From Poseidonia sp. (GTDB lineage: Archaea > Thermoplasmatota > Poseidoniia > Poseidoniales > Poseidoniaceae), in NCBI GenBank assembly GCA_030827745.1, contig JAURDW010000001.1, forward strand, positions 5,815 through 69,814: 64,000 nt of DNA. Reading direction: 5' to 3'. The notes under the pieces were generated by a model, which had not been told where the DNA came from, ran no database searches, and was given only the letters and a program-made list of their open reading frames with translations. Of this stretch, positions 1,621 to 44,530 are shown in pieces. The stretch's first letter is position 1. Each line of letters opens with the position of its first letter. Both the position numbers and the translations under genes were made by a program.

Positions 1621-4643
<3,023 letters not shown>

Positions 4644-4727
4644 GTCCTCGGGACTCGCCTCTTCCGCTTCAAGACTTCCCCTTGTCCATCACCAAACCTT
4701 CTTGATGCTGAACGCGAAGCCAGCACC

Positions 4728-7201: not shown

Positions 7202-7247
7202 TCACGCCTCCCGAACCATTAGAAAGGGTAAGGACAGCCAAACCGCT

Positions 7248-19300: not shown

Positions 19301-20637
19301 CACCGTTCACGAACGCACCCCATCACCACCTCGTGCGGGGCATCGGTCACCAAGAAAGGGTCAATGTCGGGAATGCGGGCGGCACCGTAGCCCGCTTCTT
19401 GAATCGCTTCAAACAGGGCATCCATCTTGGGAGCTTGTCCCGTACCTGCCATGTTGGGCAGGTCGTCCATGTGGTAGAGCGTGTGGTCCTTGGCCATCAG
19501 CATCGCCGCTTCCGAGATGTAGCGGACGCTCCTCCGAAGTTCTCTGGCTGCGTATTCTTGGTCGTTTTCATTCCATGCCAGGCCGTGCTTTTTCGCTTTC
19601 TCAATCTCTTCCTTCGTGGGGCTGCACACGGCCAAAACCCGTTCTTCGGTCATGCGTCCAGCGATGTGTTCGTCCCAAAGCGAGCCGATCCAAAGAGGGC
19701 CGCTTCCCCGTTCCACCTCTTCGGGCGTGGGGTGGTGGACGAATCGGTAGGTGCCGTCATCGTTTCGGATGCGCCAGCCAATGGAGTCAAGAACGTTTGA
19801 GGCACTCTCTCGGCTTCGGCGAACCTTGACACTGATGCGAACATGATGGCCGTCAAACAAAGCCAGCACCGGCTCAATTGACCGGTCATGGCGTGCAGCG
19901 GTGGTGGCGACGAGTCCGAGCAGGACGCGCACGGCGTCGTCGTGAGCGTAGCTGTCCACGATGCCTTTGGCGCCGTAACGGCGGAATTGAGAGCCTTGGC
20001 TGGAGCCCGTAAGTGCGGCCGTGTCGGTGGCCGTGACCTCCAAAAAGCCGACACGCGCGAGTCCTTGGACCGCCGCGTCGAGAAAGTTCACCGGCGACCC
20101 AAACGGGTCCAAATCCACCCATTGGTACCCGGCTTCCAGAAGCGTCATACGTGCGTCGTTTTGAAGCGTGTAAATCCCGTTGTTCATCGCTCCTTTCACG
20201 GGCCGGAGGTAGCGGTCGTCTTCGGGGTCGTGGTCAACCGAGACGGCGGGGGGAAAAGCGGCGTGGGAGCGATTCAACCAATCGAGAGCGAACCGGTCGA
20301 GGTCGTTGGCGGTGATGCGCAACCTGTTTTGGTGGTTTTCGGGGATTTCGTTTCGCCATCGACGAACGCGCACGCCCGTAGCGCACAGTGCGTCCAGAGC
20401 GCGAAGCGGTTGGTCCGGTTTGGTGAGCCAGCTGTGTTCGAGGGCGTCCGCCATGAGCAGAACTGAGCGCGTCCGAGCAGGAGCCATCGCAGGATTGAGG
20501 AAGCCGGGGCCGGTACGCTTTGCAGGCCCACGCGGCATATGTGTGGGGCGGTCCTGGTCTTGGCGCAGGTGAACCAAGGTCTTGCCCTCCAGCCACAGAT
20601 GACCAGGGCCAACATCGGTGGGCTGTTCCTCGGCCAC
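19291..20637 (-). CDS. trm1: tRNA (guanine26-N2)-dimethyltransferase Trm1.
   Basis: LWLEGKTLVHL...FLNPAMAPARTRSVLL...DALCATGVRVRRW...DLDPFGSP parallels the archaeal Trm1 N-terminus and SAM-binding region. Confidence 0.75.
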   Translation of the reverse strand: MAEEQPTDVGPGHLWLEGKTLVHLRQDQDRPTHMPRGPAKRTGPGFLNPAMAPARTRSVLLMADALEHSWLTKPDQPLRALDALCATGVRVRRWRNEIPENHQNRLRITANDLDRFALDWLNRSHAAFPPAVSVDHDPEDDRYLRPVKGAMNNGIYTLQNDARMTLLEAGYQWVDLDPFGSPVNFLDAAVQGLARVGFLEVTATDTAALTGSSQGSQFRRYGAKGIVDSYAHDDAVRVLLGLVATTAARHDRSIEPVLALFDGHHVRISVKVRRSRESASNVLDSIGWRIRNDDGTYRFVHHPTPEEVERGSGPLWIGSLWDEHIAGRMTEERVLAVCSPTKEEIEKAKKHGLAWNENDQEYAARELRRSVRYISEAAMLMAKDHTLYHMDDLPNMAGTGQAPKMDALFEAIQEAGYGAARIPDIDPFLVTDAPHEVVMGCVRERCHS

Positions 20638-29985: not shown

Positions 29986-31038
29986 TTGTGCATGCGCGAA
30001 CACCCGTCCAACCGTGTTGACTTTCGCTCAGACACGGTCACGCAACCAACGGCAGCCATGCGAAAAGCGATGGCGGCTGCACCGGTCGGTGACGACGTCT
30101 TGGGCGATGACGCCACGGTCATGGCGCTCCAAGAGCGGGTGGCGACCATGTTTGGAAAGGAGGCGGGCTTGTTTGTCGCCTCCGGCACCATGTCCAACGC
30201 CGTTGCTTTGCGGACCCATACCGTTCCAGGAGACGAAATCGTTTGCGATAAAACCGCTCATATCTATCGTTACGAGGGGGGTGGCTATGCTGCGTTGTGT
30301 GGGGCGTCGGTGGCTCTGGTTGATGGTGAAAAGGGTTTGATGACGGCAGAGCAGGTTCGAAGCGCGGTGCGAAAAGCAGACGGCTCTGGCAGCCATTACC
30401 CAAACGCAAGCCTCGTCTGCGTGGAAAACACTTCCAACCTCGGAGGTGGAACGTGCTACGACCTTGACATGCTGGACGACATTGCCGCAGCGGCCAAAGC
30501 GATGGGCTGTGCGACCCATCTCGACGGTGCTCGAATTTTCAATGCCGCAGCAGCGACCGGCATTGACGTTGCACGGATGTGTGCTGGCTACGATTCGGTT
30601 TCCATCTGTTTCTCCAAGGGTCTCGGTGCTCCCGTCGGTTCGGTGTTGGTCGGAAGCCGTGAATTCATTCAAAACGCTCACCGTTGGCGAAAAATGTTTG
30701 GCGGCGGATGGCGTCAAGCAGGTCTTCTTGCAGCAGCGTGCAACCATGCGCTCGACCATCATGTGGACCGTTTGGTGGAGGACCATGTTCGTGCCCGGAC
30801 GCTCGCCGAGGGCTTGAACAAACTGCCAGCTTTCTCGGTGGACCTGACCACGGTTCAAACCAACATGGTCTACGTCGACTGCGCCGCACCCGCTCAGCAT
30901 GTCGTTGAGAAACTCGCCGGTCACGGCATCGATATCCTTGACACGGCCGCACATCGCGTACGGTTCGTCGTCCACCTCCATATTACGGACGAAGATGTGG
31001 AAAGGCTGCTCTCGGTCTGTGCCTCCGAATGGGCATGA
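29986..31038 (+). CDS. ltaE: Low-specificity L-threonine aldolase (PLP-dependent, beta-eliminating lyase family).
   Basis: VDFRSDTVTQPT...GDDVLGDD...ASGTMSNAVAL...FSKGLGAPVGSVLVGS (PLP-Lys region). Confidence 0.8.
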   Translation: MCMREHPSNRVDFRSDTVTQPTAAMRKAMAAAPVGDDVLGDDATVMALQERVATMFGKEAGLFVASGTMSNAVALRTHTVPGDEIVCDKTAHIYRYEGGGYAALCGASVALVDGEKGLMTAEQVRSAVRKADGSGSHYPNASLVCVENTSNLGGGTCYDLDMLDDIAAAAKAMGCATHLDGARIFNAAAATGIDVARMCAGYDSVSICFSKGLGAPVGSVLVGSREFIQNAHRWRKMFGGGWRQAGLLAAACNHALDHHVDRLVEDHVRARTLAEGLNKLPAFSVDLTTVQTNMVYVDCAAPAQHVVEKLAGHGIDILDTAAHRVRFVVHLHITDEDVERLLSVCASEWA

Positions 31039-33464
31039 GCCTTCATAAATGGTTGAACAACGACCTCTTCATGACCACGAATGTTTGTGACCATCCGTGC
31101 GCCCACAACCCCGCCTCGGAAGAGAGCTCCATCGTCTGCGATTGGTGCAACGCCATGATCAATTTTCAACCCAACAAGAACTGGGAAGTCTATCTCTCTC
31201 CGCGTGAGCACGAGCACGCCATCGCTCAATTTGGCGGGCCAAGTTTGCCTTCCCGTCAACGCTGGAATCGCTTGCTCTTTTCACAAAGCAATCGACCCTT
31301 GGTCCATTGGGCGCGCTTGGACGATGACGTTGATCCCATCGTTTCTCTGCCGTGCTCGCCCGAGGCGTTTGCAGGCATTGCAGCGGGCATTCAAACGGGG
31401 CGCCAACTGACAGGCGAGGAATCTCGATGGCTCCAGAACGGCCTTCGCTTTCACGATGGAACAACGCTTCGCTATTTGCGCGACTGCTGGTACTTGGACG
31501 ATGTTCGTCTGCCTTCATTGAGTTTTGAGGTCCTCTTTCCCATGTTGGCGGAAGAACGAACGCGCCGCGGTTGGGACTTGCCTGCCCTCATCTTGGGCTT
31601 GGCCTCGTGCACGCCGGTCATTGGCGACCTCTTTGGAGAAGGAGGTCCACAGCGGCAACCTGACATGAACGGCCGGGGCGTTCGGTCGCATTATCGGCCG
31701 CTTGCGAGCATGTTGGTTTGGCTGATCAACCGTCTTCATCTGGACCGCCATCACGAAGCACCAACCCGGGAAACCGTCCCGATGATGGCTTGGGCGCACG
31801 ACATCAAACAACGTTTGCTGCGCAACCAAACGACGGATTTGCACGCAACCTTTCAAAACGCCCTTGCCAACCATCCACCTGGCCTCTTTGAACGCTACAC
31901 GATGCCTTGGATGCGGGCGTGGAGGCGGTTGGAACCTACCCACCGTCATCCGCGAACGAAGAATTGGGCGTTTCGGACTCAGGGGAAAAAATTGATGTTT
32001 CGCGTCCGTACAAAAACCGGCAGTATTCGACTCGTGAACGTGCCCGACCGCCCTGAAGCATGGGCCTTGGCGATTTCACTGGCTCACGCCCCGTTGAACT
32101 CTGAAACCGGGAAGTTGTTGCTGGGTTTGCAACACAATTGGACGGTGCCGTACACGGTCGACGCTGAGCCAAGCGCTCCGCTCGTGAAATCCTTGGAGTT
32201 TTGTCATCAAATCATGAACGGTTTGCCCGACCGAATCTTCATCGAGCAATCCACAGCTCTTGTCTTTGGACAGTTGGGCCACGCTTACGAGGTTCGAGTA
32301 GGGAACGGTCAGCACGGCGCTCCGTACACCATCGATCACCTGTTTGGTTTTGAACGTCATTCACGGGAGTCCATTTGCATCCACAGCGGCCGTCACCATA
32401 CCCGCCTTCCTCTCGGTGACACCATGGCTTCGGTGCTGTTATCCATGGCCAACGATGTAAACGCTACCCGCGAAATTCAAAGTTTGTCCGAAGTGATCGT
32501 TCACTCACCACCGTTCGGTTTTCCCGTTCGGAACGTGTCGGGTCGCTGGTTGGACATGCTCGACCAAGAGGCTCTGAATGCGTTGCGCAAGGAACCGTAC
32601 CATGGAAGCGATGTTTGGTTCGCCGTCTGGCGGCCACGCTTCGCCGATGATGCGGATGAGGACGAGGACGACAACCCCGCCGGTTTGGCGGGCATGCGGC
32701 TCTTCCATCATCACCGCCGACGCCGACACCGACGCCGAGAAGAACATGTCAATCAACGATGGGTGCGAGCTTTTGAGGAACGTTTCGAAGCCTCGCTTTC
32801 CTTCCCCTACGATGAAGTTGTAGCAGAGTGGCGAGGCCAAGTTCGTCCTGCTGACCCCTTATTGCACCACCATGACGAGGGCAGGGGCGGCCCGTTCGGG
32901 CGCGGTCTGCAACGCATGATGCGCCGCCAACACCGCATGTGGGGGCACCGTCGCCCCGACGACGTGCACGGCGAAGGTGATGTTCGAGACGGTGAACGCC
33001 GATGGTGCGAGGTCTTTGCTCGCGTTTGGGAAGTGATGAGTCTTCAGCCTCTCGGCAGCCAAGTACGGATGCCTCGGCGAGACGGTGATGCGCTTGCATT
33101 TGAGCATGCAAACCTGACCGTGACCCTTCGAAACGGCCTGGAACGTTCAGCCGTGAGTCGCATGGCGCGGATTTTGGGCTACGTGCGTCACGCAGAAGCC
33201 GACAATCGGGTCGCCTACGTCCGCAGGGACCATCCTCGCCCGCACGCTCGTCTGGAACTCACCGATGTGCTCAGGGATGTGCAAGATCGACAGGGGGTTC
33301 GCGGAGCCCCTCCACGATGGTGGAACTATTGCGAAGTTGCTGCGGCGCCAGATGAGGTGGAACACCTTCGCTGGGAATTGGAAGTTGACCTTACCGACCA
33401 ACCGAGGCAACATCTTTGGCCAAATGCTGGGGATGATGGCCAGAATTGGGTTTTCTTGGAGTGA
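31029..33464 (+). CDS. Large orphan protein (811 aa) with an N-terminal Cys4 zinc-ribbon-like motif and a His/Arg-rich tract.
   Basis: CDHPCAHNPASEESSIVCDWCN (Cx3C...Cx2C) and LFHHHRRRRHRRREEH. No recognisable enzymatic motifs. Its 3' end overlaps the convergent gene by about 74 nt. Confidence 0.45.
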   Translation: MGMSLHKWLNNDLFMTTNVCDHPCAHNPASEESSIVCDWCNAMINFQPNKNWEVYLSPREHEHAIAQFGGPSLPSRQRWNRLLFSQSNRPLVHWARLDDDVDPIVSLPCSPEAFAGIAAGIQTGRQLTGEESRWLQNGLRFHDGTTLRYLRDCWYLDDVRLPSLSFEVLFPMLAEERTRRGWDLPALILGLASCTPVIGDLFGEGGPQRQPDMNGRGVRSHYRPLASMLVWLINRLHLDRHHEAPTRETVPMMAWAHDIKQRLLRNQTTDLHATFQNALANHPPGLFERYTMPWMRAWRRLEPTHRHPRTKNWAFRTQGKKLMFRVRTKTGSIRLVNVPDRPEAWALAISLAHAPLNSETGKLLLGLQHNWTVPYTVDAEPSAPLVKSLEFCHQIMNGLPDRIFIEQSTALVFGQLGHAYEVRVGNGQHGAPYTIDHLFGFERHSRESICIHSGRHHTRLPLGDTMASVLLSMANDVNATREIQSLSEVIVHSPPFGFPVRNVSGRWLDMLDQEALNALRKEPYHGSDVWFAVWRPRFADDADEDEDDNPAGLAGMRLFHHHRRRRHRRREEHVNQRWVRAFEERFEASLSFPYDEVVAEWRGQVRPADPLLHHHDEGRGGPFGRGLQRMMRRQHRMWGHRRPDDVHGEGDVRDGERRWCEVFARVWEVMSLQPLGSQVRMPRRDGDALAFEHANLTVTLRNGLERSAVSRMARILGYVRHAEADNRVAYVRRDHPRPHARLELTDVLRDVQDRQGVRGAPPRWWNYCEVAAAPDEVEHLRWELEVDLTDQPRQHLWPNAGDDGQNWVFLE

Positions 33465-34401: not shown

Positions 34402-35535
34402 TCAGTCCTCGGCGGGTGTGTCTTCTCCCACCCCACTCTCGGTGGTTTCGTCCTCGGAGGAGGTGAAAAGGGAGGCGGCCTCGGGGAGTGCACCGGCTTC
34501 AAACATGGCTTGGAGGTTCTCCAAACGGCTCTTGACACCAGCCCCAGAGAGGTCAACGGCTCCCGCCACGCAATTCAGCAGACCTCGGTGCAAACCAAGT
34601 TGCCGAAGAGCGGCGAAAAACACGCTTGCTGCGACCATGTCCATGGGCACGTTGGCCACGGGACCGTCAACGCGGGGTTCCTTCAACTCGGAAAGGGCGT
34701 TCCAGAAGATCTTCATGGTGCTGTCGAGGTCGCCGTCATCAAGGCGTGTGCTCACAGCGTCCACCAAGTTTTCCACAGCGATGACCAGTGCGTCAGCTCG
34801 ATTGGCCACAAGGCGGATGTTCTGGGGAGCCATGGCCCATCCCATGCTCACCCGAGCCTTGTAGTGGTTGCTGATGGTTTTCTTGGCGTTAACAAATTGC
34901 TCTTTGGAAATGCCGTATTTGTTGCGCACGGCAACCACGTTGATGCTTGGAGTGTTGAGCCATCCGGCTGAAAGGTCGGCGATGGCCAAGGCCATGATTT
35001 GGAGGTTCTGCATGTCGCCGTTGCCCTTGACGCCTTTCTTCTTGCGACAAATGGATGTTTTCGGGCAAGCCAGGCGCTTTTGGTCGCTGGAGTTCAAGGT
35101 CTTGCGTTGAGCCTCCTGAGCGGGGGTCAACTTCTTCGCGGTGGCCTTGGCAAGCAAGCGGGTTGCATGTGCGATGTCCTTGCCAAACATCTCTCGAATC
35201 ATGGCCATCAGTTGACGAAACATGGGGTCTTTCTCGCGTTGGCTGTTGCGGTCTGCCCATCCCAAGGACCGGAATTTGGCTCGGGTCTTGGCATCAAGTC
35301 GCTTTCCTGACCAGTCCTTGGTGTCACCGTATGGATTCATCTTGGTGCCGGCCTTACCTTCGTCATCAACTGCTCCGTTTTGGGCGTGCTCACCGTGAAC
35401 GGCGGATGCATTGGTGTCAGCGTCGTTCACCATCACGGGGTATTCAATGGCGCACCAAGTATCGGCGCACACGCCCATGCCTCGGGCATAGTCGATGTTC
35501 AGCTTCGTTCCACATTCTTCGCATTTCAATTCCAT
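34402..35535 (-). CDS. Divergent TFIIB/TFB-like protein (N-terminal zinc ribbon plus cyclin-like repeats).
   Basis: MELKCEECGTKL...GVCADTWC zinc ribbon. The C-terminal VPMDMVAASVFFAALRQLGLHRGLLNCVAGAVDLSGAGVKSRLENL resembles a TFB cyclin repeat. The start is taken at MELK; the ORF extends to 35640. Confidence 0.45.
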   Translation of the reverse strand: MELKCEECGTKLNIDYARGMGVCADTWCAIEYPVMVNDADTNASAVHGEHAQNGAVDDEGKAGTKMNPYGDTKDWSGKRLDAKTRAKFRSLGWADRNSQREKDPMFRQLMAMIREMFGKDIAHATRLLAKATAKKLTPAQEAQRKTLNSSDQKRLACPKTSICRKKKGVKGNGDMQNLQIMALAIADLSAGWLNTPSINVVAVRNKYGISKEQFVNAKKTISNHYKARVSMGWAMAPQNIRLVANRADALVIAVENLVDAVSTRLDDGDLDSTMKIFWNALSELKEPRVDGPVANVPMDMVAASVFFAALRQLGLHRGLLNCVAGAVDLSGAGVKSRLENLQAMFEAGALPEAASLFTSSEDETTESGVGEDTPAED

Positions 35536-35642
35536 TTTTTCTACCTCTCTGTAACATGAACCTAAGACCCTTATAAACATGATGCCTCGGACACCAAATC
35601 CGCCGGTTCTTGTCGGAACATGAATTACTCTTGTTAGCATAG

Positions 35643-35650
35643 TATTTAAA
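35643..35650. promoter_or_regulatory. TATA-box-like element (TATTTAAA) in the divergent intergenic region.
   Basis: The only AT-rich hexamer block in the 35577-35699 gap. It lies about 50 nt upstream of ATG 35700, and is palindromic so usable on either strand. Confidence 0.4.
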
Positions 35651-35699: not shown

Positions 35700-38600
35700 G
35701 TGGGGGCGCCATCCAACCAAATTGAACACGGACCCACCAGATGCTTCACAGAGGATGCGAGAACGGCCCGACCCTATTTGAACACACCGTTTGACCTGGA
35801 GGCTTCCTTGATGCAAGTCTGGCGCGTACCTTCAAGAAGCGTCGGAGTGGTTGGAGGGGCGAGGGTGAGTCTATTGTCGGTTCAACATCATGTGTCGTCG
35901 GAGTACACGCCAGCCGGACGCGGCTTGCCGGTGTGGTTGGCGCAGGCGTTCTTGGAACGGCCCGCCCCCAACATTCTTGTTGTTCACCCGAACGAACTCC
36001 ATCGACAGCAAACCCTTGAGCGATTGCATCAAGCCGGGGCTGACCTTGCCCCGAATCTCCACCTCACGCTCAATCGCCTCGTTCGCCTGTTGCACACGGA
36101 CCTGCGTCTGCCGGTCCTTTTGGACGATGATGCAAGCAACGGTCTTGCGCTTCATGCTCGCTGCGTTCAAGCCGCCAACGACGGTTCCTTCCCCTTCCTG
36201 CATGTCCCGGGGGTTGGTGCCTGGACGATGGCCAAGACCAGCCGCCTGCAACGTTTGCACGCCGAGTTGATGCACCTTCGCCGCCCCTTTGAGTGGGAAA
36301 ACGACCCGGGGGCGGTCACCTATCACCGCCTTGTTCTCAACCACCAAGCCGATGCGGGTGGCACCTTGCCCGTGATGGTGCTTCCAAGTGTGGTCGGTGC
36401 CCTATCGGCTGATGATGTTCTTGCACCCTTCCACATCAGCAACATCGACGGCATCGTGCTGCTCGATACTGCGCCGGATTACACCGAAATGGAACAGGAC
36501 CTTTTGTTGGCGCTGGCGAGATTCAAACCGGTTCATCAACTTCTGTGCCCTGGGTCTTTTCGCCTTGGACACCACGGTGCTTACTTGATTGACGAGCCGC
36601 CGTGCACCGTTGAAACTTTGCCCGATTGGCTCCCCCCTCATGAGGTGTGGACGCCGTCCGACGATGGCTGGCGAACGCCCGTGAGCGATGAACGCAACAG
36701 CGTCATCTCTCGCGTGACCGTGGACGAGCGAAGGGATGCAGTGATGGCAACCCAAACCTTCGTCCAGACGTATCGCTCGGTCAGCGACGGTACCGTCCTC
36801 ATCGTGGACGGTTCGGCAAGGGAACGAAGCCAAGAATGGTCAAAGGCCTTGGCTGACATTGGTCTTCGTTGGGGTGGTGGCGCTGGAAAGTTGGAGGAAC
36901 ACCCGCTTCACCACGCGCTTGTGCAAACCGCACGTTTGGGCCAAGGCATGTCGGCATGGTCGCTGGCTTCGCTTCAACGGCTTGTGTTTTCATCAACGCT
37001 TCCGTTGGTCAACGATATGTTCCCCCACCTCACCCACCCCGTTCACGAGCACTGGCGCCCGAAGCCGGATCCGATGGTGTTGGAAGACCTTGCACGGCAG
37101 TTCCACGTCTTGGGTGGGCCGGGAGCCATCGCTCGTTGGTTGGGGGTGCTTTCCAATGCACGTCCTTCCTTTGCCGAACGTCGTCCCGAATTGAAACGGC
37201 AATCGCTTGAGGAGACCCAGTGGTGGCTGGCCTCCATGCTTCGTGCTTGGGCCCCGTTGCTCTCCCTCGAAGACCGTTATCTGTTGAACACGCAAACAGA
37301 GGGCTGCAGCTCCGGTCATGCCCTGCCTCTTCCTGATGCACCCGCAGATGGAGCGGCCTGGCTTTCATGGTTGCTCCGTGTCATCGACATCGATGTCTTC
37401 TCCCATCGGCGTGCACCCCACGATGTCGGTCTCGGTGCCTTGCAGTGCGTGGTCGACTCGCTGGTCAGCGTGCAGAGCCATCTTTCCCAGTGTGGCCTGG
37501 AGATGCCGGTTGATGGCAAGGCCTTCATCGATGTGTTGGAGCACCTCGGGACATCGGTTTCAGTGAACCACTTGACGGCGAAAACCGCCAATCTCCACGT
37601 CGTTTCTCCAGAAGATGCACATGGTTGCGAGGCTGACCTCATCATTCTCGCCGGGCTTGACGTTGATGCCTGGGGAATGCGCACACCGGTTGTCCCTTGG
37701 TTGGACGCCGAGGCTCAAGTCCAATTGGGGACGTTTCAATCCGACCGCTTGGTACGAAAGGGGAGGCATCACCTCCGCCATTTGCTGAACGCGGCACCGG
37801 TGGTCGTCGTGATCGATTCCACCCCCGAAGAAGGTGGGGGGCCGAGTGCGCCCTTGGCCGAGTGGCTGAACGATGTTCGGCGTACCGGGGAGTGGGACGC
37901 CATGCACGAGGCCCCGAGCTTCCTGCCCGAAAACATGACCGAGGGGGACACCGAAGAGCGCCGTTTCCGATGGTGCGTTCGTGAAGAGGGCCACGGAAGT
38001 TGGCTTACACCGGTGCGCCAGGTCATGTTGGCCGATGGTTCAGGGCAGCGCCGTGTTTCGAAGGGGTACGCGAAGGCCGATGTGCGTCAGCAAATCGGGA
38101 TGGATGTGCAGGGTTTGCATCCCTTTGACGAAGGCATCAACAACCCCGTGGCTCTCTTTGACAGTTTTGAGGCAGGTGTTCAAGGGGATCGGTTCCGGAG
38201 GCAACCCTCGTACCGAGATTTGGAGGAAGGGGAGACCATGTCGTGGGATTTGCGTTCATCCATGCTTTCCACCGATGCAGTTGTGCTTCGACCCACCAAA
38301 GCCTCCCTCGCTTCGTCCGGTGTCTTGGCCGAGGAATGGCCCCATCTTGGTCATCGCAACAGCAAATCGGTTTCCGTCACCGTTGACCCTCGCCCTTTGC
38401 CACCCTACATGGTCGAGGATGTCCCCATTCAGCACCGTTTCGGCTTCAACGCCCCCCCTTACCGGCGGGAAGTTTGGTCGCCAAGCCGTCTTGAGGCTTG
38501 GCTCAAATGCCCGCGTCAAGCATGGATGACGCAATGCCTCGCTGCTGACGATGCAGAGGGGCTTGAGGCCGAGGACGTGGATGCACGAACCCGTGGTCAA

Positions 38601-39617
38601 GTGGTTCACGAAGCAGAGGCTGCGTTGCTTGAAGGTCACGGTGTGCCGGTTGGAGGCGAGGTGGTTGAGGGTCCTCAACCGCTCCACCTCGGGCCGTTGG
38701 GCACGCTTGAAGACGCTTGGGCCGTTGTGCTTGCTTTTTTGCAGCGGGACGTCGCATGGCTTGGAAGAAACAACGCCGTTTCGGTTCATCGAACACGCGA
38801 TTTGGTGGACGCAACCCCAGAGGAATGGCAGGCCTTTGTGGAGGGTGAGGTGGAACTGCCTCCCCGTGGACGGCTCGCCCGCATGCTGGCCGCAGATTTC
38901 GAACTTCGTCACGCTGCCCCCGTTGCGGTGGAATGGTCCCCTACAACGGCCACGGAACGTTCGATTGCGTTGATTGCCTCTTCTGAAACCGAAGGTGTCG
39001 AGGGGCTCCGTCTGTTCGGCTATGCCGACCGTGTTGATGTTTTGGACCTCACGGAGACCCAAGAATCTGCGCTGAGAGACCTCGGTGTTCTCGGAGACGA
39101 AGTGTTTGACACGCCCTATCCGATTGATGGCACACCTCGCACAGCACAGCGGTTGGTGGTGATTCGAGATTTGAAAACCGTCAACGGTCCTGCTCCAAAG
39201 TACGTCGGTTTGCGCCACACCCGATGCTTGTTTGAAGACCTTCAACTCGCCCTCTACGCTCGCGCTTGGGAGATGTTGCACCCCAACGATCGGGTTGTGG
39301 GCGTCGGTGCCTCCGAGATTGGTGAATCGACGGTGCACTACGTTGAGTTGGACAGCGATCTCGCTTCCATCGACGAATCCTTGGCCGTTGGTGAGTGTAC
39401 TCGGTATTTCCCGCTCCATTTCCCTGCATTCGACGCCCATGGTGCGCCGATGTCCCCGTTCCGGCGCTGGATGGTGGAGCGATTGAACGTGGCCCAACGG
39501 GCGGTGAACACCGCCGCAGCAGGCCACGTGAACCCCACTCCAGGTGCTCACTGTCAATATTGCTCACTTTCCGCTTCGTGCGGAGCCGCCGTTGGTTCGG
39601 GAGGTGGCCAAGGATGA
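35700..39617 (+). CDS. AddB/RexB-like subunit: large protein with a C-terminal RecB-family PD-(D/E)XK nuclease and a 4-Cys iron-staple. No N-terminal Walker A.
   Basis: Nuclease motifs GYADRVDVL, VVIRDLKTVNG and QLALYARAW. Cys ligands LKCPRQAWM and HCQYCSLSASCG. 1305 aa. Its stop overlaps the next start (ATGA). Confidence 0.7.
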   Translation: MGAPSNQIEHGPTRCFTEDARTARPYLNTPFDLEASLMQVWRVPSRSVGVVGGARVSLLSVQHHVSSEYTPAGRGLPVWLAQAFLERPAPNILVVHPNELHRQQTLERLHQAGADLAPNLHLTLNRLVRLLHTDLRLPVLLDDDASNGLALHARCVQAANDGSFPFLHVPGVGAWTMAKTSRLQRLHAELMHLRRPFEWENDPGAVTYHRLVLNHQADAGGTLPVMVLPSVVGALSADDVLAPFHISNIDGIVLLDTAPDYTEMEQDLLLALARFKPVHQLLCPGSFRLGHHGAYLIDEPPCTVETLPDWLPPHEVWTPSDDGWRTPVSDERNSVISRVTVDERRDAVMATQTFVQTYRSVSDGTVLIVDGSARERSQEWSKALADIGLRWGGGAGKLEEHPLHHALVQTARLGQGMSAWSLASLQRLVFSSTLPLVNDMFPHLTHPVHEHWRPKPDPMVLEDLARQFHVLGGPGAIARWLGVLSNARPSFAERRPELKRQSLEETQWWLASMLRAWAPLLSLEDRYLLNTQTEGCSSGHALPLPDAPADGAAWLSWLLRVIDIDVFSHRRAPHDVGLGALQCVVDSLVSVQSHLSQCGLEMPVDGKAFIDVLEHLGTSVSVNHLTAKTANLHVVSPEDAHGCEADLIILAGLDVDAWGMRTPVVPWLDAEAQVQLGTFQSDRLVRKGRHHLRHLLNAAPVVVVIDSTPEEGGGPSAPLAEWLNDVRRTGEWDAMHEAPSFLPENMTEGDTEERRFRWCVREEGHGSWLTPVRQVMLADGSGQRRVSKGYAKADVRQQIGMDVQGLHPFDEGINNPVALFDSFEAGVQGDRFRRQPSYRDLEEGETMSWDLRSSMLSTDAVVLRPTKASLASSGVLAEEWPHLGHRNSKSVSVTVDPRPLPPYMVEDVPIQHRFGFNAPPYRREVWSPSRLEAWLKCPRQAWMTQCLAADDAEGLEAEDVDARTRGQVVHEAEAALLEGHGVPVGGEVVEGPQPLHLGPLGTLEDAWAVVLAFLQRDVAWLGRNNAVSVHRTRDLVDATPEEWQAFVEGEVELPPRGRLARMLAADFELRHAAPVAVEWSPTTATERSIALIASSETEGVEGLRLFGYADRVDVLDLTETQESALRDLGVLGDEVFDTPYPIDGTPRTAQRLVVIRDLKTVNGPAPKYVGLRHTRCLFEDLQLALYARAWEMLHPNDRVVGVGASEIGESTVHYVELDSDLASIDESLAVGECTRYFPLHFPAFDAHGAPMSPFRRWMVERLNVAQRAVNTAAAGHVNPTPGAHCQYCSLSASCGAAVGSGGGQG

Positions 39618-42600
39618 TTCAATTCAACACAAGCCAACGCCTGGGCCTTGACCTCGACCGCCACATTGCCCTTGATGCAGGTGCCGGAACGGGAAAAACG
39701 ACCGTCATGGCCGAACGCTATGTCCAGCACTTGATGGCCGACCAACAACGGGCCACGCTCCTCACCCCGCTCGGGCCTCGTACGCCACTGACCGGTCACG
39801 GTGCTTTGCGAACACCCAAACGCGAACGAACAAACCTGTCTGAATGGCCGGGCCTTTTGCCTTCCGAGGTTGTCGCCATCACCTTCACAAGGAAATCGGC
39901 GGCGGAATTGAAGGAACGTATCCGCCATCGGTTGGGATTAAGCCGCGCCACGCCGTTGGCACACGGTGACGATGAAGGCATTTACGACCCGCGTCTTCGC
40001 AGCGATGGCGATGTGGAAATGCTGCTCTCGGCTCTCGATGAAGCCCCCATTTCCACCATCGATGCCTTCCTCAACCAACTCGTTCTTCCGTTCATCGATT
40101 TGGTGGCCCTTTACCCCTCCAATCAACAAGTCACGGAAGAACGGGCTCCGCTCATGCTTCGCGACACCTTGCACGCCGTTTGGCGCATTCGTTCGGTGGA
40201 CGACGCCCGCGAGGCGGGCGTGCTCAACCATCACGATGCGTTTCTTGCCTCCAGAACGCGATTGGTGGCTCGGCTCGGAGGACAAGACCAAGCTGAAGTG
40301 GTCCTCAACGGTTTGCTGGGTCGGTCCCTCTTCGTTGAGCAATCGCACCGTTCCATGATTCAACAAGCCAAAGACATGAACTTGGCGTGGAACGGTCGTG
40401 GTCCTGCTCCAATTGAAGTTTTGATGAACACCATCGCTGCGCCGGTAGCGAACATCCTTTCAGACTTTGTTGAGGACATCCACGGCCAACTGCAGGGTTG
40501 GCTGGACGAATTTGCCCCTTACCACGCCCAGTGCGTGACGCCGGCTGAGCATGAAACCGAATTGACACGGTACAATCATCTGCGCAGGGTGCTTTCCAAT
40601 CCCCCCGCAACGGACCCAGGGGAGCAGTTGTCTTGGATGTGGCAGGTCTTCCTCGGTTTGGCGACAGGCTCGGGCCTCGAAAAGCCTCAGTGCACGTTCT
40701 TCCCGCGGGGACATCTTCCCAGTGGAGACGAATGGCCGTCGGGGCTCTTGACAAAATCGAACGTACGCGGCATCTCAGGAGCCGACAAAAAGGCGCTTTA
40801 TGACCGAGCAGCCGCCCGCCTCCCCCCTATGCTTGAACGCCTCAACTCGACGGAAGGCACGCTCATCCGCCTTCTTGCCCGTTCAGCGTTCTTGCTCTCT
40901 CCTGGCACAGGTTTTGACGGCATGCCGCTGGATTGCCCCCTCCGACTTGACCCGCTTGAGGAACCGCTCCCTCTCGAGCCCAGTGAACGGGACATGTACG
41001 TTTCACCCTCCTTGCAAACCGAGGTCTTGAGCGACTTGATGGTCCTCCACACCGGATGCCAACAAATTCTCGCCCGAAGGAAATCGCTTGATGGCATGCA
41101 TGATTTCGATGACATGCAACGGTTTGCTGCCGACCTCCTGCTCGCCCGTTGCCCCGATGTCTGCCGCCACCTCTACCCGCCTGATGTCATTGACGTTCTC
41201 GACGGGTTGGGGGACGAGCCATGGAGTGACGTCCACATTTCCAGAGCCCTCACGATGCTCAACGACCGACCGAAACTTCAGGAAGACCTTCAGCGCCGGT
41301 TTGCCATCCTCAGCGATCTTCGCCGCCAATATCGAGCCTTCATCATCGATGAATACCAAGACACCAACCCATCTCATTACCGCCTTCTGGCTCGCCTTTG
41401 GGGGCGTCGCCGTCGGGAAAGCGACGACCCGGAACGGCCCTTTGGTCCGTGGGACCCGACCGTCTGCATCGTCGGCGATATGAAGCAAAGCATCTACCGT
41501 TTCCGTCAAGCCGAAGTTTCGGTGATGCGCCGTGCGGTCGCCGCCATTCGCTCGTTCAACGCTCTGGAATTTGGCGACACACGGCTTGACCACCTTCGTC
41601 AGCCAGGCTGCGGACGAGATCCACGACCGGTCGGCGCAGGTGGTGAAACGGGCTCGTTTTCAAACGAACACACCGGTGAAGGTTCGGCCCCTTACACCCA
41701 TGTTCCCTTCGCTGACGAAGACGAACGAACGCTTCCCAACATCACCGGAGAACGGTTGGTTCGCCGCGCAGAGGGGCATGTTGATCTGACCTCCAATCAT
41801 CGGACCCGTCACAATTTGATGGAGACGATGAACGATATGTTTGACGAGGTCTTCCATCCTCGCCATCACGAACTTCCGGGGGACTGGCACGCTGAACCGC
41901 AACGGCTCCGTCCTGCCCGAACAACCGAAGACCCGGGTGTGCTTGAGTGGCTTTTGCCCATTGCCGGCCCCGTAACGAGCCCTCCCTTGGACCTCGATGT
42001 CGCGGTCGATGCCTTTCAAGATCCATCTGCGTCGTCGGTGCAACGGGAGCATCAATTGCTCGCTGACCGCCTTCATTCCCTTCTGGAGCGGGCACCAACG
42101 CGGGTGTGGGACGCCGTCAACGCCAACTGGCAGAACGTTGAGGAAGAAGGTCCAGAAGTGCGACCTCAGGACATCATGATTCTGGTAAATTCTCGAAAAC
42201 ATCTCCCCGACTTGGTGGAACGCCTGCGCGGGCGGGGCATCCCTGTCATGGCCGACCGACAAGGCTTGCTGCTCGCTCAACCCGTGGTTCAGCCTCTCCT
42301 CGCTCTGCTGGCTTTGATGGCCCGGCCAAGCGCTCGTTCAGCAGGCTTCGTCCTCGCACGTTCACCCGTGATGGGGATGACCGAGCGTCAAGTTCAGGAG
42401 GCCCTCCTGTCTGTGCCTGTTGGTCAAAGCCTCTGGCCTGCTCTCATTGAGCACGCACCCACCGAAGCGGTTCGAAGCCTCATCCAAGACTTGCACCGAA
42501 CGGTACGGTGGGGTGCTGTTTACGATGCATTTGATACCGTTCTGGACCGTTCGGACCTGTTGGTGGCCTACCCTGAAGATTCACAACGCCAATTCGCCGA

Positions 42601-44530
42601 GGCTTGGCTGGCGATGGTGCACGGCATCGGAAAAGAAACCGGTCATGACGTCTCCGCCATGCAAAGGCGCATGGTTGAAATCAAAGCCTTGGACCGCCAA
42701 GGCCCTCAAGCCATTGTCAAGGCGGACGCTTCTTCCGTGAAGATCATGACCATCCACGGCTCAAAAGGTCTCCAAGCCCCCGTCGTTGTTGTTTCGGGCT
42801 TGTTTAGCGCAGGCATGGCCGATGCGAGCATGGCGGTGTCGGACAACGTTCTCGTGACACCCCAAGTGGTGGCGGGACGCATTCAGCCTTGGCGAGCGAG
42901 GGAGCGACCAGCGGACGGTCTGTGGTCCTTCGCGACCGAGATGAACAAAGCCCAAGACAAGGCTGAGTTGCGACGAAAATTCTACGTGGCCCTGACCCGC
43001 GTGAAGGACCGCCTCATCATCACGGGATCCCCCGGCAAACAATCCACCTTTGATGCTGAGTCGGGAGCCCTTGGGGTTCGTGTGCAACCTGACCCACGGA
43101 CCATGGGCAAGATGCTGGTTGAGGGGTTGCGAAGAGCGGCATGGCGGGCGGGCGACGCCGCTTCACCGTGGCTTCATGCTGGCGAGGCCGAGGCAACCGA
43201 ACTCCCATCGTTTGCTCCCCTCAAGACCGTGACGTTGCTCGACCCCGCTCGTTTGCTCAACGAGGCGCCCTTGGGCCTGAACGGCGTTCAGGGGCTTCGC
43301 CTGTATCACCATCCGCTGTGTTTTGACCCATCGGTCCCTCGCTCCGTTCAACAACGAGCACGTGACCTTGAGGCCCATTTGGCCTCCGGCCCCGACCGCC
43401 CAAGGCCGACTCTCATTCGCTTGCCGGTTGAAGAAACGCTTCAGGGGGCCGCACACCACTTGGATTCAACCTCGGCGTGCCAGCGAAGGTATTGGCTTGA
43501 GCACGTCAACGGTTGGACGCCGGAGCCGTTCCGCCTCCCCGCGTCCGCAACCGTCTCCCCGAGCGAGAACCCGTGGCCCAAGCCCACCGAATTTGGGCTC
43601 ATGATGCACCGCGTCATGGAAATCGGTCTCAGAAATCCGTTGAACTTCGTTGATGGCGCCCCCAAGTTGGACCCGTCTTGGAACCACGCCTCAGAAGACA
43701 ACTTGGCCTCCGAGACCACGGTGGCTCGGGTGATGCACGAATTCGGCTATGGCCCTGAGCAGGAGGACGGTTCAGATTCCGCTCGATGGCGAGACCGATT
43801 AATGCATCTTGGCAGCCTCATCGATGTCGGTGTTCTCGGGCGGTGGACACAAGGTGAGCACCTTCACGGCTGGACCCTGGAAGCCGTGCGAACGGAACTG
43901 CCGTTTTTCCATCGTGAGCGAATGGTGATGGAAGATGAAGCCATGAGGGAATTGATTCCATCATCCGTTGGTGTTGGTGATTTGCAAGCCGTCAACATGG
44001 ATTTTAGCGGACGGGCTGATTTGGTCTTGGCCCTCGCCAACAGCGATGGGGACGGGGCTCTGCAGGTTGTGGACCTGAAGACCAAAGGATGCCTGAAGGA
44101 TTTCAATGCAGCAAACGCTGCTTCAGGCCACGCCCTTCAAGGGGTGCCTTCGAGCGAACTCTCACTCGACCCGAAATCGGATGCAGAGGCGGAACTGTTG
44201 GCGGAGCACGAACTGCAGCTCACGCTGTATTCCGTGGCGTTGGAAGCGATGGAAGCGGCCAAGCCGGAGGAAGACCGGCGCCATGTTCTTCCTCCAGCCT
44301 TGCTCGTTGGCGCAAACGGCCGCATGATTCAACTCACGAAAACGAGGTTTGAGCAGGCAAAAGATGTCCTTCGAAACCATTTGAAATGGCGTACAGCGGT
44401 TCACTTGAACCCCGAATTGGCGGAACCGCCCCGCCTCAAAGCAGGGTCAATGACCTGCACGATGTGTCCGTTTTATCGAGGCGATTTGCGTCGGTGCGGT
44501 CCTGAAGGCGAGCCCTTGGGCTTCAGGTGA
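39614..44530 (+). CDS. AddA/RexA-like subunit: UvrD-family SF1 helicase fused to a C-terminal PD-(D/E)XK nuclease that also carries a 4-Cys cluster.
   Basis: Helicase motifs: Q (FNTSQRL), I (GAGTGKTT), Ia (VAITFTRKSAAEL), II (IIDEYQDTN), III (GDMKQSIYRFRQAE), IV (SNHRTRHN), V (TIHGSKGLQAP) and VI (YVALTRVKDRLIITG). Nuclease motifs GRADLVLAL, VVDLKTKG and QLTLYSVALE. Cys ligands ACQRRYWL and CTMCPFYRGDLRRC. The start at ATG 39614 overlaps the upstream stop. Confidence 0.8.
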   Translation: MIQFNTSQRLGLDLDRHIALDAGAGTGKTTVMAERYVQHLMADQQRATLLTPLGPRTPLTGHGALRTPKRERTNLSEWPGLLPSEVVAITFTRKSAAELKERIRHRLGLSRATPLAHGDDEGIYDPRLRSDGDVEMLLSALDEAPISTIDAFLNQLVLPFIDLVALYPSNQQVTEERAPLMLRDTLHAVWRIRSVDDAREAGVLNHHDAFLASRTRLVARLGGQDQAEVVLNGLLGRSLFVEQSHRSMIQQAKDMNLAWNGRGPAPIEVLMNTIAAPVANILSDFVEDIHGQLQGWLDEFAPYHAQCVTPAEHETELTRYNHLRRVLSNPPATDPGEQLSWMWQVFLGLATGSGLEKPQCTFFPRGHLPSGDEWPSGLLTKSNVRGISGADKKALYDRAAARLPPMLERLNSTEGTLIRLLARSAFLLSPGTGFDGMPLDCPLRLDPLEEPLPLEPSERDMYVSPSLQTEVLSDLMVLHTGCQQILARRKSLDGMHDFDDMQRFAADLLLARCPDVCRHLYPPDVIDVLDGLGDEPWSDVHISRALTMLNDRPKLQEDLQRRFAILSDLRRQYRAFIIDEYQDTNPSHYRLLARLWGRRRRESDDPERPFGPWDPTVCIVGDMKQSIYRFRQAEVSVMRRAVAAIRSFNALEFGDTRLDHLRQPGCGRDPRPVGAGGETGSFSNEHTGEGSAPYTHVPFADEDERTLPNITGERLVRRAEGHVDLTSNHRTRHNLMETMNDMFDEVFHPRHHELPGDWHAEPQRLRPARTTEDPGVLEWLLPIAGPVTSPPLDLDVAVDAFQDPSASSVQREHQLLADRLHSLLERAPTRVWDAVNANWQNVEEEGPEVRPQDIMILVNSRKHLPDLVERLRGRGIPVMADRQGLLLAQPVVQPLLALLALMARPSARSAGFVLARSPVMGMTERQVQEALLSVPVGQSLWPALIEHAPTEAVRSLIQDLHRTVRWGAVYDAFDTVLDRSDLLVAYPEDSQRQFAEAWLAMVHGIGKETGHDVSAMQRRMVEIKALDRQGPQAIVKADASSVKIMTIHGSKGLQAPVVVVSGLFSAGMADASMAVSDNVLVTPQVVAGRIQPWRARERPADGLWSFATEMNKAQDKAELRRKFYVALTRVKDRLIITGSPGKQSTFDAESGALGVRVQPDPRTMGKMLVEGLRRAAWRAGDAASPWLHAGEAEATELPSFAPLKTVTLLDPARLLNEAPLGLNGVQGLRLYHHPLCFDPSVPRSVQQRARDLEAHLASGPDRPRPTLIRLPVEETLQGAAHHLDSTSACQRRYWLEHVNGWTPEPFRLPASATVSPSENPWPKPTEFGLMMHRVMEIGLRNPLNFVDGAPKLDPSWNHASEDNLASETTVARVMHEFGYGPEQEDGSDSARWRDRLMHLGSLIDVGVLGRWTQGEHLHGWTLEAVRTELPFFHRERMVMEDEAMRELIPSSVGVGDLQAVNMDFSGRADLVLALANSDGDGALQVVDLKTKGCLKDFNAANAASGHALQGVPSSELSLDPKSDAEAELLAEHELQLTLYSVALEAMEAAKPEEDRRHVLPPALLVGANGRMIQLTKTRFEQAKDVLRNHLKWRTAVHLNPELAEPPRLKAGSMTCTMCPFYRGDLRRCGPEGEPLGFR

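What the first reader, a model, noticed from the sequence alone, without database searches (positions are those of the whole stretch)
35700..44530. Bacterial-type AddBA-like helicase-nuclease operon in an archaeal context, with iron-staple nuclease domains on both subunits
Two translationally coupled genes (ATGA overlap at 39614-39617) encode an AddB-like protein (1305 aa; PD-(D/E)XK with LKCPRQAWM and HCQYCSLSASCG Cys ligands; no Walker A) and an AddA-like UvrD-family motor (1711 aa; all SF1 motifs Q-VI present) fused to a second PD-(D/E)XK nuclease. That second nuclease also carries four Cys (ACQRRYWL ... CTMCPFYRGDLRRC). In the Bacillus AddAB paradigm only AddB carries the Fe-S staple, and archaea normally use Mre11-Rad50-HerA-NurA for end resection. 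The AddA-like subunit is also about 500 aa longer than canonical AddA. This could be a horizontally acquired DSB-resection machine or a repurposed, possibly defence-related, helicase-nuclease.
Basis: partly seen in the sequence, partly recalled or inferred. Interest (0 to 1): 0.8.

Follow-up and report, generated by a model that had tools for sequence, protein, structure and literature searches.

The report
Archaeal AddAB-type helicase-nuclease, two iron-sulfur nucleases
A marine planktonic archaeon (Marine Group II, Poseidoniales) carries a conserved two-gene copy of the bacterial-type AddAB DNA-break-processing machine in which both nuclease domains, not just one, have the four cysteines of an iron-sulfur "staple"; it is a new variant of a well-known machine and seems not to have been described.

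Summary
Two overlapping genes (ATGA at 39614-39617) encode an AddB-like protein and an AddA-like protein.

**AddB-like subunit (about 1250-1268 aa)**
- It has no Walker A motif.
- Its predicted fold best matches B. subtilis AddB, then AdnA and RecC.

**AddA-like subunit (1638 aa, not 1711)**
- It is a complete UvrD-type motor.
- Its closest match by sequence is AddA.

**Nuclease domains**
- Both C-terminal domains keep invariant D, DxK and QxxxY residues.
- Both keep a four-cysteine pattern (C...CxxCx5C and C...CxxCx9C) in 57 of 65 species-level pairs.
- One subclade has lost the cysteines, partly in both subunits.

**Context**
- The contig is archaeal (MCM, GatE, Trm1).
- The pair was detected in 333 reference genomes. 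All 80 best hits are Poseidoniales contigs.
- Flanking genes are conserved, so this is a core chromosomal locus, not a defence island.

**Reading and limits**
- Most likely it is a single-motor, dual-nuclease DNA-end resection enzyme acquired long ago from bacteria.
- It fails the curated AddA and AddB thresholds, so it is a new variant, not a family member in the strict sense.
- The bacterial donor is untested, as are iron-sulfur binding and the presence of Mre11/Rad50/HerA/NurA in these genomes.
- I found no paper describing it.

The parts
35643..35650 (.). TATTTAAA, an archaeal TATA-box-like element in the 170-nt gap between the divergent upstream gene and the AddB-like gene. Possible shared promoter region.
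   Evidence: Read directly from the sequence. Function not tested.
35811..39617 (+). AddB-like subunit gene. It is 1268 aa from ATG 35811. The maximal ORF starts at GTG 35700, and orthologues suggest a start at GTG 35865 or TTG 35874. It consists of a degenerate UvrD-like helicase fold without Walker A, followed by a C-terminal PD-(D/E)XK nuclease.
   Evidence: ORF. P0001 is 100% identical over 1268 aa. The AF2 model has pLDDT 84. Foldseek gives full-length AddB 4ceh_B at E 2e-16, then AdnA and RecC. No Walker A. addB_alphas hits in 12 of 22 members.
38400..39614 (+). AddB-like nuclease domain (approximate N-terminal limit). In P0001 numbering: first Cys C900 (LKCPRQAW), catalytic D1073 (GYADRVD), D1120-x-K1122 (RDLKT), Q1145...Y1149, and C1248-x2-C1251-x5-C1257.
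   Evidence: Pfam PDDEXK_1 E 4e-13. Invariant columns. D/DxK/QxxxY are invariant in 73 sequences. The Cys spacing equals the AddB/Cas4/Dna2 CX2CX5C pattern, and the first Cys lies about 350 aa upstream, as in AddB (PMC3321194).
39600..39617 (+). Gene junction: GGAGGTGG (39600-39607), then ATGA (39614-39617), where the AddA-like start codon overlaps the AddB-like stop codon.
   Evidence: In 75 related loci the junction is -1 nt (46), -4 nt (18), +2 (3), +8 (7), plus one outlier (+1335).
39614..44530 (+). AddA-like subunit gene, 1638 aa: an SF1A UvrD-type motor with all motifs, plus a C-terminal PD-(D/E)XK nuclease.
   Evidence: Pfam UvrD-helicase 3e-31, UvrD_C 4e-16, PDDEXK_1 1.5e-9. Invariant motifs. 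PDB profile search gives AddA 3u44_A at 1e-33. NCBIfam addA_Gpos is the top hit in 26 of 26.
43256..44527 (+). AddA-like nuclease domain (residues 1215-1638): first Cys C1289 (ACQRRYW), D1469 (GRADL), D1487-x-K1489 (VDLKT), Q1535...Y1539, and C1615-x2-C1618-x9-C1628.

Best explanation
The two genes encode the subunits of an AddAB-type heterodimeric helicase-nuclease. It is a vertically inherited core component of Poseidoniales (Marine Group II) archaea.

Shown here:
- Domain architectures, catalytic motifs and cysteine patterns of both proteins.
- Fold of the AddB-like subunit.
- Strict gene pairing with overlapping stop and start codons.
- Conserved chromosomal neighbourhood.

Inferred by analogy with B. 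subtilis AddAB (established knowledge: Yeeles and Dillingham 2007; Saikrishnan 2012, PMC3321194):
- The complex binds a double-stranded DNA end.
- The AddA-like SF1A motor is the only ATPase, because the partner has no Walker A. It translocates 3'-to-5' and unwinds the duplex.
- The 3'-terminated strand is fed to the AddA-like nuclease.
- The 5'-terminated strand is fed to the AddB-like nuclease.
- The dead helicase domain of the AddB-like subunit may scan the 3' strand for a regulatory (Chi-like) sequence.
- The product would be a 3' single-stranded tail for the archaeal recombinase RadA.

Each nuclease domain is predicted to be pinned by a Cys4 iron-sulfur cluster. That is one more cluster than in the AddAB and AdnAB structures solved so far. 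The system was most likely acquired from bacteria before the Poseidoniales diversified.
For: Pairing and inheritance
- The AddA-like gene lies directly downstream on the same strand in 75 of 79 related loci. The other 4 are contig ends. Stop and start overlap in most.
- Seven flanking genes are syntenic in 58-68 of 79 loci.
- 333 reference genomes encode the AddB-like protein. The best 80 are all Poseidoniales contigs, including the 2012 MG-II genome CM001443.1. The one contig labelled Verrucomicrobiales has MGII flanks.
- A 30%-identical pair on a 3-Mb archaeal contig keeps the same order, a 4-nt overlap and the cysteines.

AddA-like subunit
- All SF1 motifs are invariant.
- The best PDB match is AddA at 1e-33.
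- addA_Gpos is the top NCBIfam hit in 26 of 26 orthologues.

AddB-like subunit
- The AF2 model (pLDDT 84) aligns over its full length to AddB chain B (E 2e-16, TM 0.5), then AdnA, then RecC.
- It has no Walker A.
- Some members hit addB_alphas by sequence (best E 2e-9).

Nucleases
- D, DxK and QxxxY are invariant in 73 AddB-like and 67 AddA-like sequences.
- All four Cys are kept in both subunits in 57 of 65 pairs.
- The AddA-like nuclease model resembles the iron-sulfur nucleases Dna2, AdnA and AddB most closely.

Against a defence role
- The AddB-like protein has no PADLOC hit. The AddA-like protein has only generic UvrD-domain hits.
Against: - Both proteins score far below the curated AddA and AddB cut-offs: 137 vs 708 bits, and 18 vs 487 bits.
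- A profile of the AddB-like family does not find AddB in the PDB by sequence. That link rests on a predicted fold and on weak addB_alphas hits.
- Heterodimer formation, ATPase and nuclease activity, iron-sulfur binding and any Chi-like control are untested.
- In the structural searches, AddA (no cluster) scores nearly as well as AdnA and Dna2. The fold alone therefore does not prove a cluster.
- The Cys tail of the AddA-like nuclease model has low confidence.
- Archaea use RadA, not RecA, so a RecA-loading step cannot simply be transferred.
- Six related species-level genomes have lost three cysteines of the AddB-like subunit. The cluster is therefore not indispensable.
Confidence: 0.8

Rival explanations
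1. The pair is mainly an anti-virus or anti-plasmid system. It would be a helicase-nuclease that destroys foreign linear DNA, as RecBCD does to phage DNA, or like the UvrD-Cas4-like fusion proteins found next to restriction-modification genes. Recombinational repair would not be its main role.
For: - The AddA-like architecture (UvrD motor plus Cas4-like four-Cys nuclease) is the same as that of the UvrD-Cas4-like fusions. Those were reported in bacteria and mesophilic archaea and linked to Type III R-M and Dcm/Vsr loci (PMC5704561).
- The AddA-like protein has weak partial PADLOC hits to GajB helicase models.
- A methyltransferase gene lies immediately downstream on the opposite strand, with a weak mad2 hit.
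- RecBCD and AddAB themselves degrade phage DNA (established knowledge), so the two roles are not exclusive.
Against: - The locus sits in a conserved core neighbourhood shared across families of Poseidoniales and was detected in 333 reference genomes. Defence systems are typically patchy and lie in variable islands.
- The GajB hits cover only the generic UvrD core, at 18-65 bits.
- The AddB-like protein has no PADLOC hit.
- The UvrD-Cas4 fusions are single proteins without an AddB-like partner.
- The neighbouring methyltransferase is a small SAM-dependent Methyltransf_11/23-type enzyme, not a recognisable DNA methylase.
Confidence: 0.12
2. The two proteins are not a dedicated end-resection complex. 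Instead, a UvrD-like repair or replication-restart helicase-nuclease happens to be co-transcribed with an unrelated large Cas4-like nuclease.
For: - By sequence alone the first protein shows only a PD-(D/E)XK domain.
- It has no PDB relative.
- No complex prediction could be run.
Against: - The predicted fold of the first protein matches AddB over its full length, including the four helicase-like subdomains. It then matches AdnA and RecC, which are exactly the partner subunits of the three known end-resection machines.
- Pairing and codon overlap are conserved down to 30% identity.
- Cysteine loss is concentrated in the same subclade for both subunits.
Confidence: 0.05

Closest known systems
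Bacillus subtilis AddAB (PDB 3U44, 3U4Q, 4CEH-4CEJ)
   Same: - Gene order is addB then addA.
- One active SF1A UvrD-type motor (AddA) carries a C-terminal RecB-family nuclease.
- The partner has a dead helicase fold plus a RecB-family nuclease with C...CX2CX5C cysteines.
- It is the best structural match for the AddB-like protein and the best sequence match for the AddA-like protein.
   Different: - The AddB-like protein has no Walker A, whereas B. subtilis AddB keeps one (PMC3321194).
- The AddA-like nuclease carries four conserved cysteines, whereas the cluster is described only in AddB (PMC3378879).
- The AddA-like protein is about 400 aa longer through four insertions.
- Sequence identity is about 10-15%, and the curated HMM cut-offs are not reached.
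- The host is an archaeon that uses RadA.
Alphaproteobacterial-type AddAB (NCBIfam TIGR02784 and TIGR02786)
   Same: It is the only AddB family that members of the AddB-like group hit by sequence: 12 of 22, best E 2e-9. The AddA-like protein also hits addA_alphas.
   Different: - Scores are far below the cut-offs (18 vs 487 bits; 123 vs 861 bits).
- Whether alpha-type AddA or AddB share the cysteine or Walker A status seen here was not tested.
Mycobacterial AdnAB (PDB 6PPR, 6PPU, 7SJR, 9NP6)
   Same: - It is a heterodimer of two UvrD-like helicase plus RecB-nuclease subunits.
[quoted passage not shown]
- AdnA is the second-best structural match for both the AddB-like protein and the AddA-like nuclease.
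   Different: - AdnA keeps Walker A and B motifs and binds nucleotide. The AddB-like protein has none.
- In the AdnAB structures the cluster is reported in AdnA only.
UvrD-Cas4-like fusion proteins of pfam12705 (Hudaiberdiev et al. 2017, PMC5704561)
   Same: The domain architecture matches the AddA-like subunit: an SF1 UvrD helicase fused to a Cas4-like nuclease. They are reported in bacteria and mesophilic archaea.
   Different: - They are stand-alone proteins, often next to Type III R-M or Dcm/Vsr genes, with no AddB-like partner.
- Their relationship to the AddA-like protein was not tested.
E. coli RecBCD
   Same: - It does the same overall job.
- RecC is a dead-helicase, dead-nuclease scaffold that matches the AddB-like fold.
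- RecB matches the AddA-like motor.
   Different: - RecBCD has three subunits, two motors, one nuclease and no iron-sulfur cluster.
- No RecD-like gene is adjacent here.

Membership tests
AddAB-type helicase-nuclease (broad sense) | Two adjacent co-oriented genes, with the AddB-type gene upstream of the AddA-type gene | tested here: met
   The pair is adjacent in 75 of 79 related loci.
AddAB-type helicase-nuclease (broad sense) | AddA: an SF1A UvrD-like motor with intact motifs Q and I-VI, plus a C-terminal RecB-family nuclease with D, DxK and QxxxY | tested here: met
AddAB-type helicase-nuclease (broad sense) | AddB: a UvrD-like four-subdomain fold lacking the helicase motifs, plus an active RecB-family nuclease | tested here: met
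   The AF2 model matches AddB chain B over its full length (E 2e-16). Catalytic residues are invariant. This rests on a predicted structure.
AddAB-type helicase-nuclease (broad sense) | Four-cysteine iron staple flanking the AddB nuclease (first Cys about 300 aa upstream, then CX2CX5C) | tested here: met
   C900...C1248-x2-C1251-x5-C1257 is conserved. Metal binding itself is not testable here.
AddAB-type helicase-nuclease (broad sense) | Stable heterodimer; ATP-dependent unwinding and dual-strand degradation from DNA ends; regulation by Chi | not testable with these tools
   No multimer prediction or biochemistry was available.
NCBIfam equivalogs addA_Gpos, addA_alphas, addB_alphas, recB | Whole-protein score at or above the curated cut-off | tested here: not met
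   Scores against cut-offs: 137 vs 708, 123 vs 861, 18 vs 487, and 126 vs 696 bits. No hit to a Gram-positive AddB model at E <= 0.01.
Firmicutes-type AddB | Conserved N-terminal Walker A (ATP-binding) motif | tested here: not met
   No [AG]x4GK[ST] at the N-terminus in any of 51 sequences.
AdnAB | Both subunits retain Walker A and B motor motifs | tested here: not met
   The AddB-like protein lacks Walker A. The AdnA properties come from PMC3321194 and PMC13000450.
RecBCD | Third subunit RecD (SF1B motor) and a nuclease-dead RecC | tested here: not met
   There is no third helicase gene in the operon. The AddB-like nuclease motifs are intact.
UvrD-Cas4-like fusion clade (pfam12705 branch) | Helicase domain belonging to the monophyletic UvrD-Cas4 clade; stand-alone gene, or next to R-M or Dcm genes | not tested
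   The context criterion is not met. The phylogeny was not run because no reference sequences were available.

The most novel reading that the evidence does not exclude
Poseidoniia use a bacterial-derived AddAB-like enzyme with two iron-sulfur clusters as their principal DNA-end resection machine, in place of or alongside the archaeal Mre11-Rad50-HerA-NurA route. This enzyme would hand its product to the archaeal recombinase RadA. The second cluster, on the motor subunit, would be an ancestral functional feature of this lineage, for example in strand guidance or redox sensing in sunlit, oxidising surface water. A subclade later dispensed with both clusters.
Probability: 0.3. Interest if true: 0.7.

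Novelty: new variant of a known kind. Interest (0 to 1): 0.55.

Why it matters
- End resection in archaea is usually discussed only in terms of Mre11-Rad50-HerA-NurA. Here, one of the most abundant archaeal groups in the surface ocean carries a conserved AddAB-type machine instead or in addition.
- This raises the question of how a bacterial-type resection enzyme cooperates with RadA.
- The second iron-sulfur staple, and its natural loss in one subclade while the catalytic residues persist, offer a ready-made comparison for asking what the cluster does in RecB-family nucleases.
- The finding also adds a large, clean example to the record of bacterial gene import into the Poseidoniales core genome. 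A bacterial-type NAD-dependent ligase lies in the same window.
- The organisms are uncultured, so tests will need heterologous expression.

Tried and rejected
- **PDB sequence searches.** Searches with the AddB-like protein, its family profile and the AddA-like nuclease profile found no AddB or other significant relative. Only a marginal Cas4 match appeared at the first-Cys motif. The AddB link therefore had to come from structure prediction.
- **Representative-library search.** The first attempt failed because the profile was too long. The trimmed run returned only family members and fragments in the 150 rows shown. Any bacterial relatives among the 418 hits stayed out of sight.
- **Homology search with the AddA-like nuclease profile.** It returned only MGII fragments.
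- **AFDB Foldseek library.** It was unavailable.
- **Recent duplication of the two nuclease domains.** Profile-profile comparison (hhalign) of the AddA-like and AddB-like nucleases gave no significant match, so this idea is rejected.
- **Defence-system reading.** Rejected as the main explanation because of core synteny and the lack of specific PADLOC hits.
- **Bacterial origin of the contig.** Rejected on MCM, GatE, Trm1 and the taxon labels. The single "Verrucomicrobiales" label is a mis-binned MGII contig.
- **Literature searches.** Searches combining AddAB with Marine Group II, Euryarchaeota or Poseidoniales, and with double-strand break terms, found nothing relevant. Yeeles 2009 was not held.
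Full report
**1. What is in the sequence**

Two long same-strand ORFs occupy 35700-44530.

The first ORF:
- It runs to a TGA at 39615-39617.
- Its maximal form (GTG 35700) is 1305 aa.
- The public protein identical to it starts at ATG 35811 (1268 aa; P0001).
- Most orthologues are about 1245 aa and align from about residue 22. GTG 35865 or TTG 35874 may therefore be the true start.

The second ORF:
- It begins at ATG 39614, so ATGA at 39614-39617 overlaps stop and start. GGAGGTGG lies 7-14 nt upstream.
- From that ATG it is 1638 aa.
- Orthologues are 1632-1667 aa and all begin MIxFNxSQRLGLDLD.

**2. Host**

- The window encodes MCM (22638-24767), GatE (24816-26834) and Trm1 (19291-20637, minus strand). 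It also encodes a bacterial-type NAD-dependent ligase (1627-3855).
- Homologues that carry names are from Candidatus Poseidoniales, Poseidoniaceae or Thalassarchaeaceae.
- A scan of one genome per GTDB species found 333 genomes encoding a relative of the AddB-like protein. The 80 best are all Poseidoniales (Marine Group II) MAG contigs, including the 2012 MG-II genome CM001443.1.
- One contig labelled Verrucomicrobiales has MGII-type flanking genes and is mis-binned.

The context is therefore archaeal.

**3. The AddA-like protein**

- Pfam finds UvrD-helicase (3e-31), UvrD_C (4e-16) and PDDEXK_1 (1.5e-9).
- In 26 orthologues down to 43% identity, the Q motif, Walker A (GAGTGKT 23-29), DEYQD (579-583), motif III (GDMKQSIYRFR), motif IV, motif V (TxHxxKGL) and motif VI (YVAxTR) are invariant. 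An active motor is predicted.
- A family profile finds B. subtilis AddA as by far the best solved relative (E 1e-33). AdnB scores 7e-19 and RecB 7e-15.
- All 26 orthologues have addA_Gpos as their best NCBIfam family (best 6e-59).
- Scores are nonetheless far below the curated cut-offs (137 vs 708 bits).
- Compared with AddA, the extra roughly 400 aa is distributed in four places: about +34 near residues 44-87, +132 in domain 1B, +68 between motifs III and IV, and +149 in the C-terminal part.

**4. The AddB-like protein**

- By sequence it shows only PDDEXK_1. It has no solved relative.
- 12 of 22 orthologues hit the alphaproteobacterial AddB model TIGR02786 (best E 2e-9). Five hit TIGR03623, "probable DNA repair protein".
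- An AlphaFold2 model of residues 69-1268 with 51 sequences has mean pLDDT 84.
- Foldseek against the PDB gives the five B. subtilis AddB chains as the top hits: E 2e-16 to 4e-15, TM about 0.5, alignments spanning the whole chain. Next come AdnA (1e-13 to 2e-11), then UvrD-type helicases and RecC.
- These three proteins are exactly the "second subunits" of the three known bacterial end-resection machines.
- No member of the family has a Walker A motif. The partner is therefore a dead helicase, as in RecC and unlike AdnA and B. subtilis AddB.

**5. The two nucleases and the cysteines**

I extracted both proteins from the 79 species-level loci and aligned them.
- The catalytic D, DxK and QxxxY residues are invariant in all 73 AddB-like and all 67 AddA-like sequences.
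- The AddB-like cysteines are C900 (LKCPRQAW) and C1248-x2-C1251-x5-C1257. This is the spacing of AddB, Cas4 and Dna2, with the first Cys about 350 aa upstream, as described for AddB.
- The AddA-like cysteines are C1289 (CxRRYW) and C1615-x2-C1618-x9-C1628.
- All eight positions are Cys in 57 of 65 pairs.
- Four genomes of a divergent clade (L072, L075, L077, L078) keep a re-spaced set: CxxCxxC in the AddB-like protein and Cx7CxxC in the AddA-like protein.
- Six genomes of one Poseidoniaceae clade (L052, L056, L058, L061, L063, L067) have replaced the three C-terminal cysteines of the AddB-like protein by Y, S/G/N and Y. Three of them (L056, L063, L067) have also lost one or more AddA-like cysteines. 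Catalytic residues are kept throughout.
- A 30%-identical pair on a 3-Mb archaeal contig (L080) keeps both patterns.

The double four-Cys pattern is therefore ancestral to the family and was lost secondarily.

An AlphaFold2 model of the AddA-like C-terminal 424 aa has pLDDT 78 and pTM 0.76. Its Cys tail is modelled with low confidence. It is most similar to iron-sulfur nucleases:
- Foldseek: AddB 3.7e-6, AdnA 1.2e-5, Dna2 3e-5.

The two nuclease domains are not detectably similar to each other by profile-profile comparison. The second staple is therefore not a recent copy of the first.

**6. Operon and neighbourhood**

- The AddA-like gene follows the AddB-like gene on the same strand in 75 of 79 loci. 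The other four are contig ends.
- The junction is a 1-nt or 4-nt overlap in 64 of 75.
- Three upstream and four downstream genes of the window are found in the same order in 58-68 of the 79 loci, across both families of the order.
- The deep-branching L080 locus also has MCM-GatE upstream and phosphatidylserine decarboxylase downstream.
- This is a stable core-genome locus. Together with the absence of specific PADLOC hits, that argues against a mobile defence island.

**7. Mechanism**

Shown: architecture, motifs, fold, pairing and conservation.

Inferred from the B. subtilis paradigm: a heterodimer loads at a DNA end.
- The single AddA-like motor moves 3'-to-5' and unwinds the duplex.
- The AddA-like nuclease cuts the 3' strand.
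- The AddB-like nuclease cuts the 5' strand.
- The dead helicase domain may read a regulatory sequence.
- The result is a 3' tail for RadA.

In AddB and AdnA the cluster subdomain sits at the fork and is needed for end binding and strand separation. What a second cluster on the motor subunit would do is unknown. A purely structural staple of an enlarged nuclease domain is the simplest guess.

My confidence that this is an AddAB-type helicase-nuclease is about 0.8. My confidence that its main cellular role is recombinational end resection is about 0.6.

**8. Comparison with what is known**

- It works like AddAB: single motor, dual nuclease.
- It fails the strict membership tests of the curated AddA and AddB families.
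- It differs from Firmicutes AddB (no Walker A), from AdnAB (partner without motor motifs) and from RecBCD (no RecD, active second nuclease).
- In the literature available here the iron-sulfur cluster is described only in AddB or AdnA, never in the motor subunit.
- UvrD-Cas4-like single-protein fusions are known in bacteria and mesophilic archaea. They share the AddA-like architecture but have no partner and sit in R-M or Dcm contexts. Their relationship to this protein is untested.
- I found no paper linking AddAB to Marine Group II or to Euryarchaeota.
- Public annotations call the proteins "hypothetical", "PD-(D/E)XK nuclease family protein", "UvrD-helicase domain-containing protein" or "exonuclease V beta subunit".

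**9. Limits**

- The bacterial donor was not identified.
- The prevalence of four-Cys AddA proteins in bacteria is unknown.
- The presence or absence of Mre11/Rad50/HerA/NurA in these genomes was not determined.
- Complex formation and metal binding were not determined.
- The family-specific peptide patterns used in the genome scan cannot reveal more distant archaeal relatives.

**10. Verdict**

This is a real, conserved and apparently undescribed archaeal variant of the AddAB-type helicase-nuclease, with predicted iron-sulfur staples on both subunits. The interest is moderate. It is a surprising host and an unusual cofactor arrangement for a well-understood machine, and a natural Cys-loss clade offers useful experimental contrast.

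Noticed in passing
window 4302-5903 (+), probably starting near 4755: A third PD-(D/E)XK nuclease gene (PF12705, E 4e-19) with a Cas4-like cysteine pattern (ETCPRMYW ... SCGGFCDWKAWC). It lies just downstream of the NAD-dependent ligase gene and has a weak PADLOC DruK hit.
   Followed up: partly
window 1627-3855 (+): A bacterial-type NAD-dependent DNA ligase (LigA: adenylation, OB, HhH and BRCT domains) in an archaeal genome. It is another probable bacterial import among the DNA-repair genes.
   Followed up: no
loci L052, L056, L058, L061, L063, L067 (related Poseidoniaceae genomes): One subclade has replaced the three C-terminal cysteines of the AddB-like protein (C-Y-S-Y pattern). In L056, L063 and L067 cysteines of the AddA-like protein are replaced too. 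All catalytic residues are kept.
   Followed up: partly
loci L072, L075, L077, L078: A divergent clade has re-spaced cysteine clusters: AddB-like CxxCxxC and AddA-like Cx7CxxC.
   Followed up: partly
L080 10001-18168 (ENA ERZ26167216, 3.0-Mb contig): The most divergent full-length pair found (1164 aa and 1558 aa, about 30% identity, 4-nt overlap). It lies on a 3-Mb archaeal contig with MCM-GatE upstream and PSD downstream. It may come from a lineage outside the usual roughly 2-Mb MGII genomes.
   Followed up: partly
L016 (NZEQ01000040.1): A contig deposited in a Verrucomicrobiales MAG carries the MGII AddB-like gene and MGII-syntenic upstream genes. It is almost certainly mis-binned.
   Followed up: yes
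window 35643-35650: TATTTAAA (TTTAAATA on the minus strand) lies between the divergent 412-aa gene and the AddB-like gene. It is a likely archaeal TATA box. It sits only 3 nt from the annotated ATG of the minus-strand ORF, so that gene probably starts at a later Met (MELKCEECG..., a zinc-ribbon-like N-terminus).
   Followed up: no
window 31029-33464 (+) and 34402-35640 (-): Two proteins with no Pfam or NCBIfam hit (811 aa with a His/Arg-rich stretch; 412 aa with an N-terminal CxxC...CxxxC motif) are conserved next to the operon across Poseidoniales.
   Followed up: no
window 57299-64000 (-) and 13151-17515 (+): Very large ORFs: more than 2233 aa running off the window end, and 1454 aa with FG-GAP repeats. 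A PKD-domain protein lies at 7095-8435. These are presumably surface or adhesion proteins.
   Followed up: no
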